From a virus: a stretch of DNA of 64,000 bases. Where the stretch lies: positions 32,001-96,000 of IMG/VR virus record IMGVR_UViG_3300030329_003470. The stretch is one strand, 5' to 3'. The position numbers were made by a program, and so were the translations under genes. The notes under the pieces are model-generated. The model saw nothing but the letters and a program-made list of their open reading frames with translations. It was not told the DNA's origin and did not search any database. How positions within the stretch are numbered: the first letter of the stretch is position 1; each line of letters opens with the position of its first letter. Below are positions 25,881-43,856 of the stretch, one piece after another.

Positions 25881-26300
25881 CTAGATTACGTCTAGTGTAC
25901 CAGTTCCTGATGCACCTACGCCTTCGTCAGTTGCTTCAGTTCCTAACGTGAACGTTACTTGTCCAGTTGTTGAACCATTGCCGTGACGTACAGTTCTGTT
26001 GTGAAATCTCTCAACATATGAATCAGTTGAGTCACTCAATACACATCTAACGCACATTTCACCTGCTGATAATGAGCCTGGTGCTACTGCCATAAGTGTG
26101 TATACTGCTGTAGACGAGTCATTCATTTGTTGGATCTTAAATCTTTTAGATCCTCTTTGCGAAACGATAAATGAATTATCATTTTGCTGTAATGAACCAC
26201 CTGAAGGGTAATAAGCCGTTACCGCAAGTCTACCTGCTGTACCGTCTCCACCGCTGTCTGTTACTGCTGACATAAGAGTCTTTTTGATAGGTCTTCCCAT
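25881..26300 (-). CDS. Hypothetical, probably structural, protein
   Basis: True start likely MGRPIKK at 26300 with SD AAGGAG; the ORF-track extension to 26369 overlaps a structured leader. Confidence 0.75.
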   Translation of the reverse strand: MGRPIKKTLMSAVTDSGGDGTAGRLAVTAYYPSGGSLQQNDNSFIVSQRGSKRFKIQQMNDSSTAVYTLMAVAPGSLSAGEMCVRCVLSDSTDSYVERFHNRTVRHGNGSTTGQVTFTLGTEATDEGVGASGTGTLDVI

Positions 26301-26402
26301 TTTTTTTCTCCTTACATGGAGCCAAATGCAAGTTCTACTTGCTACGCGGTTTAATCCGCATAAGTCCAACTACTTTGTGTTGTTGGCTCAATTGACTGCT
26401 TG
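26301..26402 (-). ncRNA. Candidate structured 5' leader (cis-regulatory RNA)
   Basis: Between TAAATA (about 26403-26408) and the SD: GAGCCAA/UUGGCUC outer stem, GCGG/CCGC and GCAAG/CUUGC hairpins, competing CCAAC/GUUGG stem. Confidence 0.5.
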
Positions 26403-39174: not shown

Positions 39175-39495
39175 ATGTCTGAACGAGATCTAGTCAAAGA
39201 ACTCAAAACCCAAATCGCTGACCTGACTGTAGACAGAGACGAGGCACTAGCGAAAGTCAAAACCAAAGAGGCGAGACTTAAACAAGTTATGATCAAATTA
39301 GAACACGCCACGGGCGATGTACAGAATGTGGGTCATAGAGTTGCGGAAAGAGACAAAGAAATTGCCACACTAAAAGCCAAACTCGAAACCAAAGACAAGT
39401 TGTTACAAGATGCGTTAAAAAAAATTAAGGGCATATATGAAGACTCGACAGAAAAAGAAGAAGATCAAAAAGAAATCTCAGAAGACGAAGAGTAA
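39175..39495 (+). CDS. Coiled-coil hypothetical protein
   Basis: 106 aa with a heptad-rich sequence. Confidence 0.75.
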   Translation: MSERDLVKELKTQIADLTVDRDEALAKVKTKEARLKQVMIKLEHATGDVQNVGHRVAERDKEIATLKAKLETKDKLLQDALKKIKGIYEDSTEKEEDQKEISEDEE

Positions 39496-39568
39496 GAACA
39501 CTCAACCATTATCACCTGAAACTATCGGCAAACTACTTGCACAGTTAGGACCAATCAAAACCAACTAA
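39437..39568 (+). CDS. Possible small Lys-rich peptide overlapping the previous ORF
   Basis: MKTRQKKKKIKKKSQKTKSKNTQPLSPETIGKLLAQLGPIKTN (43 aa); AAGGG upstream; stop precedes the terminator. Confidence 0.4.
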   Translation: MKTRQKKKKIKKKSQKTKSKNTQPLSPETIGKLLAQLGPIKTN

Positions 39569-39571
39569 CAA

Positions 39572-39619
39572 AGATGGTTTACAACCATCTGAAACTCGCT
39601 TACGCTCGTTTCTTTTTTT
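39572..39619 (+). terminator. Tandem hairpins / terminator closing the + strand operon
   Basis: AGATGGT/ACCATCT and GAAAC..GTTTC hairpins followed by T7. Confidence 0.7.
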
Positions 39620-39633
39620 AACTTAACGCAGTA

Positions 39634-39980
39634 TAAAAAAACTTGAACGCAATTTGCGTCCTATGTGGCAGATGAGCAGTCACAATACGGCTATTTCTAG
39701 CCGTACTGACTTTAACCCATGTGGCGAGTTCGCAGTCACCATACATCGTTACCAAATTGGCCGGGCGGTTGTGCTGTACCCGTTAACTCATACTTCCAAC
39801 GCGAGCCTACTATGCCTTTGTATGATAATTCATAATAGACTTGAGGTTGCTTTTTCTCAGAGCCTCTTCATTTTTGCTGTTTGCATCAAGGGATTCACCT
39901 GTCGCTTGTTAGCCGCATTTCCCTGCTCACTGGTCGAGATGCTATGTTTGCCTGATTGAAATTGTGATGTGCCTATCGCA
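39634..39980 (-). ncRNA. Candidate large structured non-coding RNA (~340 nt), family unknown
   Basis: 46% GC counted over 39661-39960; many stems; TTGACC promoter upstream; terminator-like hairpin plus U7 downstream; no - strand ORF of 60 aa or more. Confidence 0.65.
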
Positions 39981-39982
39981 TA

Positions 39983-40011
39983 TGTTTATATGAGTTTTCT
40001 TTTAAGGTCAA
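39983..40011 (-). promoter_or_regulatory. Sigma70-like promoter for the candidate ncRNA
   Basis: TTGACC (40011-40006), 17 nt, TAAACA (an overlapping TATAAA lies at 15 nt). Confidence 0.5.
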
Positions 40012-40034
40012 TCTTTTTGGCTTTAAATATGATT

Positions 40035-40466
40035 ATGAATTGGCAGTACCAAGGAAAAGACATTGTAGAATTACCAAATGATTGTGTAGGATTTGTTTAT
40101 CAAATAACAAATACAACCAATGGTAGGATGTATATTGGCAAAAAATTAGCAAGATTTAGAAAGTCACGTAGACCTTTAAAGGGCAGAGTTAACAAACGTA
40201 GGTACACTGTGTCCAGTGATTGGCAACATTACTATGGTTCGAGTGATGCTTTAAATGAGGACATTGAAAAATTTGGTAAAGATAATTTTAAAAGAGAAAT
40301 ACTTTTCTACTGCAAATCAAAAGCAGAACTATCATACATTGAAGCCAGAGAACAGTTTGCACGTAAAGTTTTAGAAACTGATGATTATTATAATGGTCAT
40401 ATTCGTGTGCGAATACACGGTTCTGGAATTCTCAGAGAAAAATCTACAAAGGGTATTTTAAAATAG
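40035..40466 (+). CDS. GIY-YIG endonuclease (Seg-like, catalytic domain only)
   Basis: GFVYQITN...MYIGKK, YYGSS, FKREIL, YIEAREQF, YYNGHI; ATG 40035 is 5 nt after TAAATA. Confidence 0.9.
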   Translation: MNWQYQGKDIVELPNDCVGFVYQITNTTNGRMYIGKKLARFRKSRRPLKGRVNKRRYTVSSDWQHYYGSSDALNEDIEKFGKDNFKREILFYCKSKAELSYIEAREQFARKVLETDDYYNGHIRVRIHGSGILREKSTKGILK

Positions 40467-40467
40467 A

Positions 40468-40501
40468 AAAACCCCCGACTAGTAAAAGCCGAGGGTTTAT
40501 T
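40468..40501. terminator. Terminator between convergent genes
   Basis: AAACCC(C)CG...CG(A)GGGTTT imperfect inverted repeat. Confidence 0.6.
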
Positions 40502-40524
40502 TGAATTAATTCAAGTAAAATTCT

Positions 40525-40713
40525 TTACGCCGCCTTAGCCGCGTTTTTCGCCTCTTGAATTTCTTTTCTTCTTGCTTTGATCAATTTAGAAAGATTCGCT
40601 AATGCTTTTCTGGCTCTTGTTGCAGATGCCTTAACACCCTTCTCTGTGAACTTGCCGTTCTCTTCAGAGTAGTTTTGAATCTCTGTCATGATCTGTTCAT
40701 GTGTTTGTGACAT
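40525..40713 (-). CDS. Histone H1-like (Hc1 N-terminal type) small basic protein
   Basis: KGVKASATRARKAL...RRKEIQEAK resembles Hc1 KGNKAAAQRVR; SD AGGAAGG; TTGACA at 40795-40790. Confidence 0.68.
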   Translation of the reverse strand: MSQTHEQIMTEIQNYSEENGKFTEKGVKASATRARKALANLSKLIKARRKEIQEAKNAAKAA

Positions 40714-41304: not shown

Positions 41305-42091
41305 CAAAACATTATATCCAATTGAAGACAAATATCTTTTGAAAATAAAAAATGATTTTTTTGCAACTAATCAAAAACAAGTGCAATCAAAAGACTTTAT
41401 TTTACAAGCAAACGAATGGTTTCAAAGTACAAAATTAAACAACTTGTCTGGATGGGACAAATTTACTCATATGGATGTAATGTTAGGTTGTACGCATTTT
41501 ATAGAGGCAACTTGTCTGCGATATGGGTGGAAAATACAGCACCTTCCAAACGAATATCTTTATTATACACTTAACGGAAAACGTCCAACACAAATAGATC
41601 AATTAAAAGAGAATGTACCTTTGATAATAAGTTTACCCATATGGCAATATTGCGATATACATCCAGAATGGGATAAAATTTTAAAGATCTGTGAAGAAAG
41701 AAATATTAATATTCATATAGACGGTGCTTGGTTCCAATCTGCTAGAAATATTGAATTTGATTTTGATCATCCAAACATACAAAGTTTTGGTATGAGTATT
41801 GGAAAAGGACTTGACTTACAATGGAATAGAATAGGATTAAGATGGAGTAGACAAAAATCAATTGATAGTATTACTCTTATGAACCAATGGGATCAAATGC
41901 ATCACACAGCAATCACGTGTGGTTCTTTTATTATGAATAATGTTGAAAAAGATTATGCTTGGAACAAATATAGTGAAGCAAATGAAAAAATTGCTAAACA
42001 AAATTCTTTACAACAGACAAATAGTTGTCATGTATTAAAAGATAATAATAATAATTTATGGGGAATAGGAAAAATTATTTCTAAACAATAA
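41288..42091 (+). CDS. PLP-dependent enzyme (fold type I-like), compact
   Basis: IHIDGAW and SIGKGL...RIG match the Asp and Schiff-base Lys motifs. Confidence 0.6.
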   Translation: MSDSVSKTLYPIEDKYLLKIKNDFFATNQKQVQSKDFILQANEWFQSTKLNNLSGWDKFTHMDVMLGCTHFIEATCLRYGWKIQHLPNEYLYYTLNGKRPTQIDQLKENVPLIISLPIWQYCDIHPEWDKILKICEERNINIHIDGAWFQSARNIEFDFDHPNIQSFGMSIGKGLDLQWNRIGLRWSRQKSIDSITLMNQWDQMHHTAITCGSFIMNNVEKDYAWNKYSEANEKIAKQNSLQQTNSCHVLKDNNNNLWGIGKIISKQ

Positions 42092-43856
42092 TTTCAACAT
42101 CATTAGCATAGTTTGTAAATCCATTTTCTTTTACAACTTTTAGTACTGAATTTACTCTGCTTACCAATTCGTCTTTGTGAGATATTAAAAATATATTTTT
42201 TTGTTGTGTTCTGCTCATGTCTTTTAGCACCGCCATTGAACTTTCAACACCCGATATATCCATACCAGCATCTACAAGTTCATCAATAAACAACAAGTTG
42301 ATCTGTTGATAAAGTGATTCCCATACATCTCTGAATGCCCAACTTAAACTTAATATCAATCTGTTTCTTTCACCTCTGCTTAAATTATCAAAGTCTAGTT
42401 CTCTACCAAGTTCTTCAATACGCACAGTCAAGTCTGGTTGGAAAACAACTGTGTGTGGCAATTTTACTTTGCCTAAGAAAAATGCTAAACGTTGATTTAG
42501 ATATGTTAAGTTTTGTTCAATTATTCTTGTTCTTATAAACGAATCTTTTGCAGTTAACAATTTATATAAGAATTCTTGGTGTCTGTGCAAGTCTTCCATT
42601 TCGTTAACTTTAGTATAATCAATTTTTTGTATTGCCTTTTTAGTTAATTCTTCTATTTGTTCAGCATACGGGTCATTTTTCTTTTCAGTTTGTTCTAATT
42701 GACGTTGTAAATCTTTTAATGAACCTTTATGATTGTATGCTTCATCAATACTGTCATAATAAGTGTCAGGTGTTTGTCCTAGATCACCTATTGTATCAAT
42801 GTCTTGTTGTATTTTTGCAAGATCACTTTTTAATTTCTCGCTGTATGTTTTACTTTCAGTAAGTGTTTCTGTTAATTGTTCAGTTAAATGTTTATGTTTT
42901 TCGTCATGAAGTGATTGTTCACAAGTTGGACATTTTGCATCTTTGGCAAATTCTAAATCAGTTTCTGTTTTTGTTATGTTTGTTTCTGCTTTAGTTAAAC
43001 TATCTTCGTGATATGCTTTTTCTTTGTTTAAACTTAATTGTTTAATGTAATTTTCATTGTGTTTTTGTAATTTTTTGTGTGCATCAAGTTCTGCTTTAAT
43101 GTCTACTTTTTCCAATTCTGCTATTGCTTCGTTAAATTTTGCAATATCTTCTTCTTTTTGTGTTTGCCATGCACTTGATCTTATTTTTAAACTTTCAATA
43201 GATTCTTGTATTTTTTCATTTGATGACATTTTTGAATCTATTTTGTATTTTTCTTCCAGAACTTCTGTTTTAGTTGCCTTCATTTTTTCTTTAAGCAAGT
43301 CTGCTTTTTGAGATAATAATGTTATACCAAGCAACTGCTCAATAATTTCTCTTTGTTCTGCTTGTTTGGTTGCTAAAAATGGTAGTGTATAAGTGTTCAA
43401 TGCAATTATGTTTTTAAACATAGCAAGAGTCATACCAACCAGTTTATTAATTTCTTGTTGTGTTTCTCTGTTTTCACCTTGTGCTTCGTTGCTGTCTGTA
43501 TTTTGTTCAATATTGTTTGCATAGAATTTAAAGATGCCAGGTTTTCTACCTCTTTCAATAGTATATTCTACATTATTTTTAACAAACTTAACACTAACTA
43601 ACATTCCTCTTTCGTTAGTTTTGTTTACAAGATTATCTCTTCTAATGTTTGTTAGTGCTTCACCGTAGAACACATAAGACAATGCATTGATAATAGTTGT
43701 TTTACCTGTACCGTTTCTAGCACCAGCATCATCACCACCCAAGTCTAAGTTTTCACCAATAACTAAAACTAAATTTTTATTGGCAAAGTTTATACTTTGT
43801 GTAGCATTACCCACACTCATAAAGTTTTTAACTGTAAGTTCTTTAATTGTTAACAT
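42081..43856 (-). CDS. Recombination ATPase (T4 gp46 / SbcC / Rad50)
   Basis: Walker A NGTGKTT, CPTC zinc hook, LSRGE signature, LFIDE. Confidence 0.96.
   Translation of the reverse strand: MLTIKELTVKNFMSVGNATQSINFANKNLVLVIGENLDLGGDDAGARNGTGKTTIINALSYVFYGEALTNIRRDNLVNKTNERGMLVSVKFVKNNVEYTIERGRKPGIFKFYANNIEQNTDSNEAQGENRETQQEINKLVGMTLAMFKNIIALNTYTLPFLATKQAEQREIIEQLLGITLLSQKADLLKEKMKATKTEVLEEKYKIDSKMSSNEKIQESIESLKIRSSAWQTQKEEDIAKFNEAIAELEKVDIKAELDAHKKLQKHNENYIKQLSLNKEKAYHEDSLTKAETNITKTETDLEFAKDAKCPTCEQSLHDEKHKHLTEQLTETLTESKTYSEKLKSDLAKIQQDIDTIGDLGQTPDTYYDSIDEAYNHKGSLKDLQRQLEQTEKKNDPYAEQIEELTKKAIQKIDYTKVNEMEDLHRHQEFLYKLLTAKDSFIRTRIIEQNLTYLNQRLAFFLGKVKLPHTVVFQPDLTVRIEELGRELDFDNLSRGERNRLILSLSWAFRDVWESLYQQINLLFIDELVDAGMDISGVESSMAVLKDMSRTQQKNIFLISHKDELVSRVNSVLKVVKENGFTNYANDVEIIV

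What the first reader, a model, noticed from the sequence alone, without database searches (positions are those of the whole stretch)
39570..40466. Large structured ncRNA candidate, with its own promoter and terminator, divergent from a GIY-YIG nuclease
Seen: ~470 nt without a credible CDS in an otherwise packed genome, 46% GC over 39661-39960. Read on the - strand it forms a transcription unit: TTGACC promoter (40011), then nested stems GCAUC/GAUGC and AGGGA/UCCCU, GAGG[GCU-CUGAGAAAA-AGC]CCUC, a 10-bp GUCUAUUAUG/CAUAGUAGGC helix with G-U pairs, CGGG/CCCG, UGGUG/CGCCA, a 14-bp AGUCA-GUACGGCUA-GAAA-UAGCCGUAU-UG-UGACU hairpin, then a GGACGCA/UGCGUUC hairpin plus U7. It contains a twin motif GUGACUGC-N5/6-GCCACAU. 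G-U wobbles and the GAAA tetraloop favour the - strand. Known: large phage ncRNAs (GOLLD, ROOL) and nuclease-associated RNAs (HEARO/omegaRNA) exist, but I do not recognise this sequence as any of them. Inference: an undescribed phage RNA, possibly partnering the adjacent catalytic-domain-only GIY-YIG protein, or binding tRNA via T-loop-like UGAGA/UGAA loops.
Basis: partly seen in the sequence, partly recalled or inferred. Interest (0 to 1): 0.85.

Follow-up and report, generated by a model that had tools for sequence, protein, structure and literature searches.

The report
Twin-word structured RNA of aquatic phages
The gene-free gap holds a real gene for a knotted non-coding RNA of about 410 bases; its family is widespread in uncultured aquatic T4-like phages, this copy matches no catalogued RNA, and it carries one short variable 'word' twice, as if it holds two copies of an unknown partner.

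Summary
On the minus strand, about 39980 to 39570, lies a gene for a structured RNA of about 410 nt.

- **Family:** I found copies in more than 170 viral loci, more than 100 metagenome loci and 4 small MAG contigs.
- **Fold:** on 89 diverse copies, 93.8% of proposed pairs are standard pairs, against 33-41% when partners are slid. 55 of 88 pairs show changes on both sides. Two pseudoknots are included.
- **Catalogue status:** the window RNA matches no Rfam 15 family and no cultured phage.
- **Twin words:** two single-stranded 7-9-nt words (GCCACAU here) flank a 14-bp hairpin. They differ between phages but stay identical within each RNA.
the UGGUG/CGCCA stem is wrong, the tRNA-binding loops are unsupported, and the RNA continues about 70 nt past the hairpin plus U7.
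- **New link:** in a sister clade and in some Burkholderiales genomes, the 5' third of homologous RNAs is the Rfam motif Polynucleobacter-1 (RF01718).
- **Nuclease link:** unresolved. All 94 assessable RNA loci have a small nuclease gene upstream (90 GIY-YIG, 4 PD-(D/E)XK). However, GIY-YIG homologues exist without the RNA, and bacterial copies lack a nearby nuclease.

This scan found the same RNA earlier on other DNA, noted as 'twin-box RNA'. Its function is unknown.

The parts
40006..40011 (-). -35-like hexamer TTGACC of the RNA's presumed promoter
   Evidence: Invariant in 18/18 close relatives. Function is inferred; the consensus scan did not call it.
39983..39990 (-). -10-like / late-like box TATAAACA
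   Evidence: A-T-rich box kept in relatives as TATAAAC or TGTTATATA. Spacer to TTGACC is 15-17 nt depending on register. Inferred.
39570..39980 (-). Whole RNA gene, about 410 nt (5' end inferred from the promoter, 3' end from the last conserved hairpin)
   Evidence: Homology to relatives starts sharply at 39569-39572. Full-length structure: 93.8% paired vs 33-41% in slid controls, 55/88 pairs changed on both sides.
39943..39978 (-). 5' single-stranded leader with two AGGCA repeats (39974-39970, 39953-39949)
   Evidence: GGC invariant; 2-4 AGGC repeats in all clades. Role unknown.
39883..39942 (-). Domain I: P1 (GCAUC/GAUGC), P2 (AGGGA/UCCCU), P2a hairpin
   Evidence: Helices 1-3 (93.9%, 93.0%, 77.1% paired; changes on both sides in 3, 3 and 3 pairs). 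This domain is replaced by other 5' domains in some clades, one of them Rfam RF01718.
39843..39866 (-). P3 hairpin with conserved A-rich loop (GAGAAAAAG)
   Evidence: 100% paired; 3 of 4 outer pairs and both inner pairs covary.
39805..39840 (-). P4 hairpin; its loop (39826-39819) is the 5' strand of pseudoknot PK1
   Evidence: 11 of 12 pairs changed on both sides, 97.3% paired.
39738..39745 (-). 3' strand of pseudoknot PK1 (pairs with the P4 loop)
   Evidence: 8 bp, 98.7% paired, 6 of 8 pairs changed on both sides. Top mutual-information pairs.
39796..39800 (-). 5' strand of pseudoknot PK2 (GUUGG here, GUUGU in most relatives), in the near-invariant junction UCGCGUUG
   Evidence: Pairs with 39772-39768 in the P5 loop. 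Supported by a triple compensatory change in one variant (L084: GUCAG/CUGAC) and a G-U in L053. Weakest helix.
39748..39787 (-). Three-way junction P7/P5/P6; P5 carries the nearly invariant 13-nt loop UACAGCACAACCG; P6 loop swaps GAAA/UACG/longer
   Evidence: P5 and P6 100% paired, P6 both pairs covary. Loop closing bases switch U..G / G..A.
39719..39737 (-). Twin box 1: constant GACUGCGAACUC plus variable word GCCACAU (39725-39719)
   Evidence: Word identical to that of box 2 in at least 155 of 179 unique RNAs, although it differs between phages.
39678..39711 (-). P8: 14-bp hairpin with 2-nt bulge and GAAA loop, between the twin boxes
   Evidence: 94-96% paired, 4 pairs changed on both sides.
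39663..39681 (-). Twin box 2: GACUGCUCAUCU plus word GCCACAU (39669-39663); its GACU is also the 3' strand of P8
39635..39661 (-). Terminator-like hairpin GGACGCA/UGCGUUC plus U7: a variable insert, possibly a partial terminator
   Evidence: Called by the scan. Only 77% paired and absent in many relatives.
39591..39612 (-). Tail hairpin GAAAC/GUUUC around the invariant GAGCGUAAGCGA
   Evidence: 5 of 5 stem pairs changed on both sides, 96.3% paired. Motif occurs once in the 196-kb genome. Present in all clades, bacterial copies included.
39572..39590 (-). Final hairpin AGAUGGU/ACCAUCU followed by UUUG: probable true 3' end / terminator
   Evidence: 95.4% paired. U-G pairs in 18 relatives and GNRA loops fit the minus strand only. 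Terminator-like.
40029..40466 (+). Neighbour: 145-aa stand-alone GIY-YIG nuclease (catalytic domain only), divergent from the RNA
   Evidence: Pfam PF19835 E = 3e-36. PHROG 447 full length. Catalytic Tyr, Arg, Glu and Asn invariant in 9 homologues.

Best explanation
The gap encodes a stand-alone, trans-acting structured RNA of about 410 nt on the minus strand.

**Transcription unit.** It is probably transcribed from the conserved TTGACC...TATAAAC region. It ends at the last conserved hairpin near 39572, with a leaky internal hairpin plus U7.

**Fold.** The RNA has:
- a 5' leader with AGGCA repeats
- a replaceable 5' domain
- a core of hairpins P3 and P4
- a three-way junction
- two pseudoknots
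- hairpin P8, flanked by two 'twin boxes'
- a conserved two-hairpin tail

**Twin boxes.** Each box has a constant part followed by a single-stranded 7-9-nt word. The words differ between phages but are kept identical within each RNA.

**Mechanism I think most likely (inferred).** The folded core is a scaffold that presents two copies of one recognition word. The RNA would thereby hold two copies of, or two sites on, an outside partner (nucleic acid or protein) whose specificity evolves quickly.

**Nuclease neighbour.** I read the nuclease gene next to the RNA as genomic company. It is either a homing-type or otherwise fixed small nuclease gene at the gp46/Hc1 to baseplate module boundary, beside a very conserved RNA gene. 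I do not read it as a proven partner.

**Wider family.** The RNA belongs to a family carried by mobile elements: T4-like aquatic phages and genomic islands of small-genome Burkholderiales. The 5' domain of some members is the Rfam motif Polynucleobacter-1.

**Shown:** the gene, the strand, the fold, the twin-word concerted change, the family.
**Inferred:** the transcript ends, trans action, partner binding.
For: - **Family size:** more than 170 IMG/VR loci, more than 100 metagenome loci and 4 MAG contigs.
- **Fold, core:** 96.9% paired vs 30-42% slid; 30 of 49 pairs changed on both sides; 0 of 500 shuffles reach this.
- **Fold, full length:** 93.8% vs 33-41%; 55 of 88 pairs changed on both sides.
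- **Pseudoknot PK1:** 6 of 8 pairs covary.
- **Strand:** G-U pairs, GNRA/UNCG loop swaps and the MFE z-scores favour the minus strand.
- **Not coding:** the longest ORF is open in 4 of 89 relatives.
- **No catalogued family:** no Rfam match in the window at gathering score or at E up to 10. No blastn match in 50,697 phage isolates.
- **Twin words:** identical 7-mers in at least 155 of 179 unique RNAs across at least 8 word types. Other words occur in divergent clades and in bacteria.
- **No partner in cis:** no complementary segment inside the RNA. Own word is not enriched in its own 196-kb genome, nor in 3-kb flanks of 155 loci. The partner is therefore external.
- **Tail belongs to the RNA:** it covaries, is unique in the genome, and is present where the first hairpin is missing.
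- **Wider family:** RF01718 abuts the core in 8 of 8 phage loci and 4 of 4 bacterial loci.
Against: - No expression data. The promoter has a non-ideal 15-17-nt spacer and was not called by the scan. The transcript ends are inferred.
- The partner of the words is unknown. Concerted change could in principle come from gene conversion between the two short repeats rather than from function.
- The nuclease association (94 of 94) is stronger than expected for a sporadic selfish gene, so a functional tie is not excluded.
- PK2 rests on one variant sequence.
- The sequences are related, so shuffle statistics overstate independence.
Confidence: 0.45

Rival explanations
1. RNA-nuclease module. The RNA works with the neighbouring small nuclease (GIY-YIG, or PD-(D/E)XK in some phages). 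It could be a specificity or guide subunit, an inhibitor or antidote, or a self/non-self marker, with the twin words giving sequence specificity to a nuclease that lacks its own DNA-binding domain.
For: - In loci fetched by an RNA pattern alone, with at least 3.5 kb upstream, 90 of 94 have a GIY-YIG gene (67 within 150 nt) and 4 have a PD-(D/E)XK endonuclease. None has neither.
- The link survives an inversion: divergent in the window's clade, tandem on the same strand in the sister clades.
- The GIY-YIG is catalytic-domain-only (145 aa), with invariant catalytic residues. It is more conserved (60-88%) than flanking structural genes (32-57%).
- The words vary as guide segments do.
Against: - Methylophilales phage Melnitz has a 60%-identical GIY-YIG in another context (after the RNR genes). 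Its complete genome has no RNA match.
- About 10 further GIY-YIG loci lack a detectable RNA, even with filters off.
- Four bacterial copies of the RNA have no GIY-YIG or PD-(D/E)XK within about 1.5 kb.
- Two unrelated nuclease folds would have to use one RNA.
- Words of 7-9 nt are short for a guide, and no word-matching target is enriched nearby or in the genome.
- Shared ancestry and synteny inflate the association.
Confidence: 0.2
2. Ligand-sensing or catalytic RNA. The doubly pseudoknotted core, with its many invariant junction bases, would be a binding pocket or ribozyme active site. The twin boxes would be processing sites that release the 56-nt P8 unit.
For: - Invariant junctions and loops: UCGCGUUG, and the nearly invariant UACAGCACAACCG.
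- Two pseudoknots around a three-way junction. This complexity is typical of riboswitch aptamers and ribozymes.
- Identical sequences at two sites would suit one sequence-specific cut made twice.
Against: - No downstream gene to regulate: convergent genes follow in both arrangements.
- No match to any riboswitch or ribozyme model in Rfam.
- Nothing explains why cleavage sites should vary between phages.
Confidence: 0.1
3. Not an RNA gene at all. The region would be a DNA-level element (origin with iterons, protein-binding repeats, bidirectional terminators), a long UTR, or a missed small protein gene.
For: - The twin boxes are direct repeats 56 bp apart, which recalls iterons.
- The 3' hairpins lie between convergent transcription units and could terminate both.
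- A 101-aa ORF exists on the plus strand.
Against: - Compensatory changes in 55 helix pairs.
- Strand-specific G-U pairs and GNRA/UNCG loop swaps.
- Two pseudoknots.
- The ORF is closed in 85 of 89 relatives.
- The tail motif is unique in the genome, so it is not a general terminator.
Confidence: 0.03

Closest known systems
Polynucleobacter-1 RNA motif (Rfam RF01718; Weinberg et al. 2010, PMC2864571)
   Same: Same larger RNA family. In 8 of 8 phage loci of a sister clade, and in 4 of 4 Burkholderiales-order genome loci, a full-length RF01718 match is followed on the same strand by the core homologous to the window's RNA. That includes the P8 hairpin, the twin words and the GAGCG..AGCGAA tail. 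It is aquatic and of unknown function.
   Different: RF01718 covers only a 141-nt 5' domain. The paper's table lists it as a likely cis-regulatory RNA of Burkholderiales and fresh water/estuary. The window's RNA has a different 5' domain and gives no RF01718 match even at E up to 10. The core, pseudoknots, twin words and tail are not part of the catalogued motif.
GOLLD (RF01998) and ROOL (RF03087) large ornate RNAs
   Same: Large, intricately folded non-coding RNAs with no known function, often carried by phages or prophages and found by comparative genomics. This comparison is of kind only, from general knowledge and PMC12286853.
   Different: No sequence or structure match. This RNA is smaller (about 410 nt, against roughly 580-800). 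GOLLD and ROOL form RNA-only multimers. Nothing here suggests self-complementary contacts, and they have no twin co-varying words.
Guide-bearing scaffold RNAs (omega RNA of IscB/TnpB, IS110 bridge RNA, crRNA)
   Same: A conserved folded scaffold with short hypervariable single-stranded segments, encoded next to a nuclease gene on a mobile element. The resemblance is one of logic only.
   Different: No RuvC/HNH, TnpB or IS110 protein is present. The neighbour is a GIY-YIG or PD-(D/E)XK nuclease. The variable segments are two identical 7-9-mers rather than one long guide or two different loops. No target match was found, and there is no Rfam match.
T4 SegB in the tRNA gene cluster (free-standing GIY-YIG homing endonuclease beside conserved RNA genes)
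   Same: A small GIY-YIG gene of a T4-like phage sits beside highly conserved non-coding RNA genes. Its position and orientation vary, and another nuclease family sometimes takes its place, which is typical of homing endonuclease turnover. The T4 facts are from general knowledge, not tested here.
   Different: Here the nuclease is nearly fixed (90 of 94 loci) and lacks the C-terminal DNA-binding domain of Seg proteins. Homing was not tested.

Membership tests
Polynucleobacter-1 RNA (RF01718) | Match to the Rfam covariance model at or above its gathering score (37 bits) | tested here: not met
   No RF01718 hit in the window at gathering score, nor at E up to 10 over 39400-40600. Relatives L091, L099, L094, L068, L067, L095, L087 and L096 score 80-114 bits.
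Polynucleobacter-1 RNA (RF01718) | Homology of the remainder of the transcript (core downstream of the motif) | tested here: met
   Model R1, built from the window's clade, hits directly 3' of RF01718 in 8 of 8 phage loci (E from 1e-10 to 3e-3). It hits in register in 4 of 4 bacterial loci (E from 8e-6 to 1.2). Twin words, P8 and the tail motif are shared.
Any Rfam 15 family (incl. GOLLD, ROOL, HEARO, OLE, raiA, tmRNA, RNase P, group I/II introns, riboswitches) | Covariance-model match | tested here: not met
   Only freshwater-2 was found, at 26298-26384 elsewhere in the window. In the region, nothing better than E = 0.05-0.9, and all of those hits lie on the Hc1 gene and terminator. ARAGORN finds no tRNA or tmRNA.
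'Twin-box / twin-word RNA' of this scan (unpublished notes) | About 400-nt knotted RNA of aquatic T4-like phages with two co-varying identical words flanking a hairpin | tested here: met
   Established independently. The earlier notes were retrieved only afterwards.
RNA-guided nuclease system | Guide segment complementary to a definable target, and obligate co-occurrence of RNA and nuclease | tested here: not met
   No enriched target for the word. GIY-YIG occurs without the RNA and the RNA without a nuclease in bacteria. Binding and cleavage are not testable here.
SegE-type GIY-YIG nuclease (neighbour gene) | GIY-YIG catalytic domain with conserved Tyr, Tyr, Arg, Glu and Asn | tested here: met
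   PF19835 E = 3e-36 over profile positions 1-123 of 123. Invariant Y24, Y35, R58, E105/E108 and N122.
Free-standing homing endonuclease (Seg-like) | C-terminal DNA-binding domain; sporadic distribution; cleavage of nuclease-less alleles | tested here: inconclusive
   No extra domain is present (145 aa, PHROG 447 full length). The distribution is nearly fixed rather than sporadic. Against that, context varies, a PD-(D/E)XK gene sometimes replaces it, and it is 71-72% identical where gp46 is only 50-55%. Cleavage is not testable.

The most novel reading that the evidence does not exclude
The twin words are specificity determinants of an RNA-nuclease system. The scaffold RNA would programme, restrain or mark self for a domain-less GIY-YIG (or PD-(D/E)XK) nuclease. 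That would make it the first RNA-specified member of these nuclease families, used in phage-phage or phage-host conflict.
Probability: 0.1. Interest if true: 0.95.

Novelty: categorically new. Interest (0 to 1): 0.8.

Why it matters
- **A widespread unknown.** A complex, doubly knotted RNA of about 410 nt is among the most conserved sequences in a large group of uncultured aquatic T4-like phages. Its 45-nt core is invariant among close relatives (19 nt across all 89 copies aligned) while neighbouring proteins drop to 30-50% identity. Yet this copy matches no catalogued RNA and has no known role.
- **A handle for experiments.** Two exposed words change between phages but never differ within one RNA. 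This is the pattern expected of a programmable recognition element.
- **A tractable host.** Rfam's Polynucleobacter-1 motif appears to be only the 5' third of homologous RNAs in Burkholderiales genomic islands. This enlarges that catalogued motif and could bring the family into cultivable bacteria, where expression, partners and knock-outs can be tested.
- **A possible larger payoff.** If the near-universal nuclease neighbour proves to be a partner, this would be a new class of RNA-nuclease system.

Tried and rejected
- **Known RNA families:** Rfam at gathering score and at permissive E-values, and ARAGORN. Nothing found for the window RNA.
- **Cultured phages:** blastn against 50,697 records gave no match. 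The covariance model on the complete Melnitz genome gave no match.
- **RNAalifold's long-range GGCA/UGCC and GGUGA/UCGCC helices, and its GAUGC/GCGUU pairing:** rejected. Partners do not compensate when the twin words change, and P1/P2 have the covariation instead.
rejected. UGGUG changes to CAAUG without compensation and pairs with the P4 loop.
- **Alternative pairing of AGUCA with the first GACU box (a switch):** rejected. C-A mismatches are tolerated there (L180).
- **Twin boxes as mini-hairpins:** the majority sequence has a C-A mismatch, so rejected.
- **Words as NAC codon plus purine (tRNA anticodon binding, queuosine tRNAs):** fits the window's clade but fails in sister clades (AGAUGAU, AGCGAAA, GCGAAUAG and others).
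- **Word target inside the RNA, in the 196-kb genome or in 3-kb flanks of 155 loci:** no enrichment.
- **Group II domain V likeness of P8 (34 nt, 2-nt bulge, GAAA):** the helix proportions are reversed and there is no AGC triad. This comparison is from memory only and is not pursued as a membership claim.
- **Cobalamin and ZTP riboswitch likeness of GGUGAAUCC and GUGACUGCGAAC:** no model match.
- **Metagenome scan for transcript-sized contigs:** all contigs were at least 1.3 kb, so it gave no evidence on expression.
- **L012 and L214-L216:** chance 17-22-mer matches, discarded.
- **Literature searches:** no description of this RNA found.
Full report
**1. Setting**

The window is bases 32001-96000 of a 196.6-kb uncultured T4-like virus record. 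The finding lies between two gene modules.
- To its right, on the minus strand, are gp46 (42081-43856) and a 62-aa Hc1-like gene (40525-40713, PF07432). On the plus strand is a 145-aa GIY-YIG gene (40029-40466, PF19835, E = 3e-36).
- To its left, the plus strand carries a baseplate gene, a 64-aa ORF and a 106-aa ORF; the tape-measure gene beyond them is on the minus strand.

The gap 39570-40028 has no Pfam-bearing ORF. Its GC is 0.44-0.46, against about 0.33 around it.

Yes.
- The minus strand folds better than shuffled sequence (z = -2.2). The plus strand does not (z = -0.6).
- A 32-mer, a 17-mer and a 19-mer from the region recovered relatives. These were more than 170 IMG/VR loci, more than 100 metagenome loci and 4 small MAG contigs.
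- Homology with relatives starts sharply at 39569-39572.
- The 101-aa plus-strand ORF is closed in 85 of 89 relatives.

**3. Structure**

I number the RNA so that position w corresponds to window coordinate 39997 - w.

*How the helices were found.* A mutual-information scan on 80 non-redundant copies picked out the helices. The top pairs are 96-100% Watson-Crick or G-U.

*Core test (w128-322, 80 sequences).* 96.9% of cells pair, against 30-42% when the 3' partners are slid by 1-3 columns. 30 of 49 pairs have changes on both sides, and 0 of 500 shuffles reach this.

*Full-length test (89 sequences, 88 pairs).* 93.8% pair, against 33-41% in the slid controls. 55 pairs changed on both sides.

*The fold:*

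| Element | Position (w) | Note |
|---|---|---|
| P1 | 55-59 / 110-114 | |
| P2 | 73-77 / 104-108 | |
| P2a | 84-86 / 91-93 | |
| P3 | 131-134 / 151-154 and 138-139 / 148-149 | |
| P4 | 157-166 / 183-192 and 169-170 / 179-180 | |
| PK1 | P4 loop 171-178 with 252-259 | 6 of 8 pairs covary |
| P7, P5, P6 | 210-249 | three-way junction |
| PK2 | 197-201 with 225-229 in the P5 loop | rests on a triple compensation in L084 and a G-U in L053 |
| P8 | 286-319 | |
| Variable hairpin plus U7 | 336-362 | |
| Tail hairpin | 385-406 | around invariant GAGCGUAAGCGA |
| Final hairpin | 407-425 | |

*Strand.* G-C to G-U to A-U changes, and loop swaps between GAAA, UACG and GUAA, fit the minus strand only.

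*The tail belongs to the RNA.* Its helices covary (5 of 5 and 3 of 7 pairs with changes on both sides). Its motif occurs once in the 196-kb genome. It is present in members that lack the first hairpin. The RNA is therefore about 410 nt, not about 335 nt.

**4.

- **Confirmed:** P1, P2, the outer P3, P4, P5, P8, the twin motif, and the minus-strand assignment.
- **Rejected:** UGGUG/CGCCA (those bases are PK1), the inner P3 register, and tRNA binding by T-loop-like loops.
- **Promoter:** TTGACC (40011-40006) is invariant in close relatives. The -10 region reads TATAAAC or TGTTATATA. The spacer is 15-17 nt depending on register, and the consensus scan did not list the site. The promoter is therefore an inference.

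**5. Twin words**

Two boxes flank P8, at w260-278 and w316-334. Each has a constant part (GACU..A.CU) and then a word.
- In 179 unique RNAs where both words could be read, the 7-mers are identical in at least 155. A further 15 agree in 6 of 7 positions. The remainder are mostly register shifts of my pattern.
- Words in the window's clade: ACCACAG, GCCACAG, AGCACAU, AGUACA(C/G), ACCACAU, GCCACAU (this window) and ACUACAA.
- Words in sister clades and bacteria: AGAUGAU, AGAUAAU, GGAUGAU, AGCGAAA, GCGAAUAG, GGCGAAAG and AGCGAUG.
- No complementary segment exists inside the RNA.
- The window's word is not enriched in its own genome (16 copies of GCCACAT on the two strands, like foreign words).
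- It is not enriched in 3-kb flanks of 155 loci either.
- A reading of the words as NAC codon plus purine failed in the sister clades.

The simplest reading is that the partner is external and the two sites must match it. This is an inference, and the partner is unknown.

**6. Neighbourhood**

In all close relatives the order is gp46, Hc1, [GIY-YIG on the other strand], RNA, then convergent structural genes.

To avoid bias from loci fetched with the GIY-YIG protein, I counted only loci fetched by the RNA pattern with at least 3.5 kb upstream (n = 94).

| Upstream nuclease | Loci |
|---|---|
| GIY-YIG | 90 (67 within 150 nt; 79 divergent, 11 on the same strand) |
| PD-(D/E)XK endonuclease (PF24608) | 4 |
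| Neither | 0 |

In sister clades the GIY-YIG lies on the same strand, directly upstream of the RNA.

Evidence against an obligate partnership:
- The closest cultured homologue (Methylophilales phage Melnitz, 60% identical) sits after the ribonucleotide reductase genes. That complete genome has no RNA.
- About 10 further GIY-YIG loci have no detectable RNA.
- Four bacterial RNA copies have no such nuclease within about 1.5 kb.

The GIY-YIG has all its catalytic residues and no extra domain. It is 71-72% identical in phages whose gp46 is only 50-55% identical. That pattern fits either strong selection or horizontal spread.

I cannot decide between hitch-hiking or homing beside a conserved RNA gene and a functional module. 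I give the module 0.2.

**7. Link to a catalogued motif**

Scanning relatives against Rfam gave an unexpected hit. In eight phage loci of a sister clade, the stretch between the GIY-YIG stop and the R1 core is a full-length Polynucleobacter-1 RNA (RF01718, 80-114 bits).

RF01718 also occurs in 3-4 of 151 sampled genomes of the same order as the MAG behind L219, a bin labelled Betaproteobacteria. In all four loci it is followed, in register, by weak R1 matches. By eye, the P8 hairpin, twin words and the GAGCG..AGCGAA tail are all there. The neighbours in those loci are a tyrosine recombinase, DUF6641 and DUF6876, which suggests genomic islands.

Weinberg et al. 2010 list Polynucleobacter-1 as a probable cis-regulatory RNA of Burkholderiales and fresh water/estuary (PMC2864571). 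It now appears to be the 5' domain of a much larger RNA. The window's RNA carries a different 5' domain and does not match RF01718. A third 5' domain type occurs in the L023 group. The 5' domain is therefore modular, while the core, words and tail are universal.

**8. What it most likely does**

- **Shown:** a conserved, independently bounded gene for a complex RNA on mobile elements, with two identical hypervariable exposed words.
- **Inferred:** it acts in trans. No downstream gene exists in either arrangement. It would work as a scaffold that binds two copies or sites of a fast-evolving outside partner.

Confidence that it is a real structured RNA gene of this family is about 0.9. Confidence in the scaffold-with-two-words mechanism is about 0.35-0.45. 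The rivals are a nuclease module (0.2), a ligand-sensing or catalytic RNA (0.1), and a DNA element or coding region (0.03).

**9. Novelty and earlier notes**

After I had established the fold and the twin words, the scan's own index showed that follow-up agents had described the same RNA on other genomes as 'twin-box/twin-word RNA' of about 400-440 nt. Their length estimate led me to test the 3' tail, and that test confirmed it.

New here are the link to RF01718 and to bacterial islands, the unbiased nuclease count with the PD-(D/E)XK replacement, the rejection of the codon reading, and the modular 5' domain.

Nothing in Rfam 15 or the searched literature describes the core.

Noticed in passing
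window 26298-26384 (-): Full-length freshwater-2 RNA (Rfam RF02980, 72 bits) elsewhere in the window. An earlier follow-up in this scan already filed it as a known motif.
   Followed up: no
L091:2957-3095, L099:2957-3092, L094:3759-3895, L068:746-879, L067:1897-2030, L095:2947-3083, L087:2938-3074, L096:2939-3084: Rfam Polynucleobacter-1 (RF01718) sits directly 5' of the twin-word core in a sister phage clade. The catalogued 141-nt motif therefore looks like only the 5' domain of an RNA of about 450-500 nt.
   Followed up: yes
L340:1153-1641 (-), L341:949-1350 (-), L342:634-1036 (-), L343:1240-1656 (-): Bacterial (Burkholderiales-order) genomes carry full twin-word RNAs with an RF01718 5' domain. 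They lie next to a tyrosine recombinase, DUF6641 and DUF6876 genes, probably in genomic islands. No GIY-YIG or PD-(D/E)XK gene lies within about 1.5 kb.
   Followed up: partly
L110:8318-8821 (-), L106:3565-4071 (+), L118:6637-7164 (-), L174:1268-1852 (+), L205:1675-2334 (+): In a few phages a PD-(D/E)XK endonuclease (PF24608; PHROG 'RusA-like resolvase') occupies the place of the GIY-YIG gene next to the RNA.
   Followed up: partly
L023, L184, L205, L259, L295, L275, L280, L328, L223 (5' 110 nt of the RNA): A subgroup has swapped Domain I (P1/P2/P2a) for a different hairpin domain while keeping the core, words and tail. The 5' domain is modular.
   Followed up: partly
window 40525-40713 (-) and 40469-40498: A 62-aa histone H1-like Hc1 homologue (PF07432, E = 2e-12) is conserved (77-98%) next to gp46 in all close relatives. 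It is followed by a strong 12-bp terminator that faces the 3' end of the GIY-YIG gene.
   Followed up: no
L213, L217, L218, L219 (MAG contigs labelled Marinimicrobia, Pacearchaeota, Pseudobdellovibrionaceae, Betaproteobacteria TMED41): Small MAG contigs carry the phage-type RNA at 174-224 bits. Given the mixed taxonomy, these are most likely phage contigs mis-binned into MAGs.
   Followed up: partly
L155, L109, L204, L192, L196, L084, L058, L060, L210, L159: Cargo genes (radical SAM, ATE-like/GNAT transferase, unknown ORFs) are inserted between the RNA and the nuclease gene in some phages. The RNA's upstream side appears to be an insertion hot spot.
   Followed up: partly
window 39437-39568 (+): A 43-aa lysine-rich ORF overlaps the end of the 106-aa gene and stops exactly where the conserved RNA block begins. 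It is probably not a gene.
   Followed up: no
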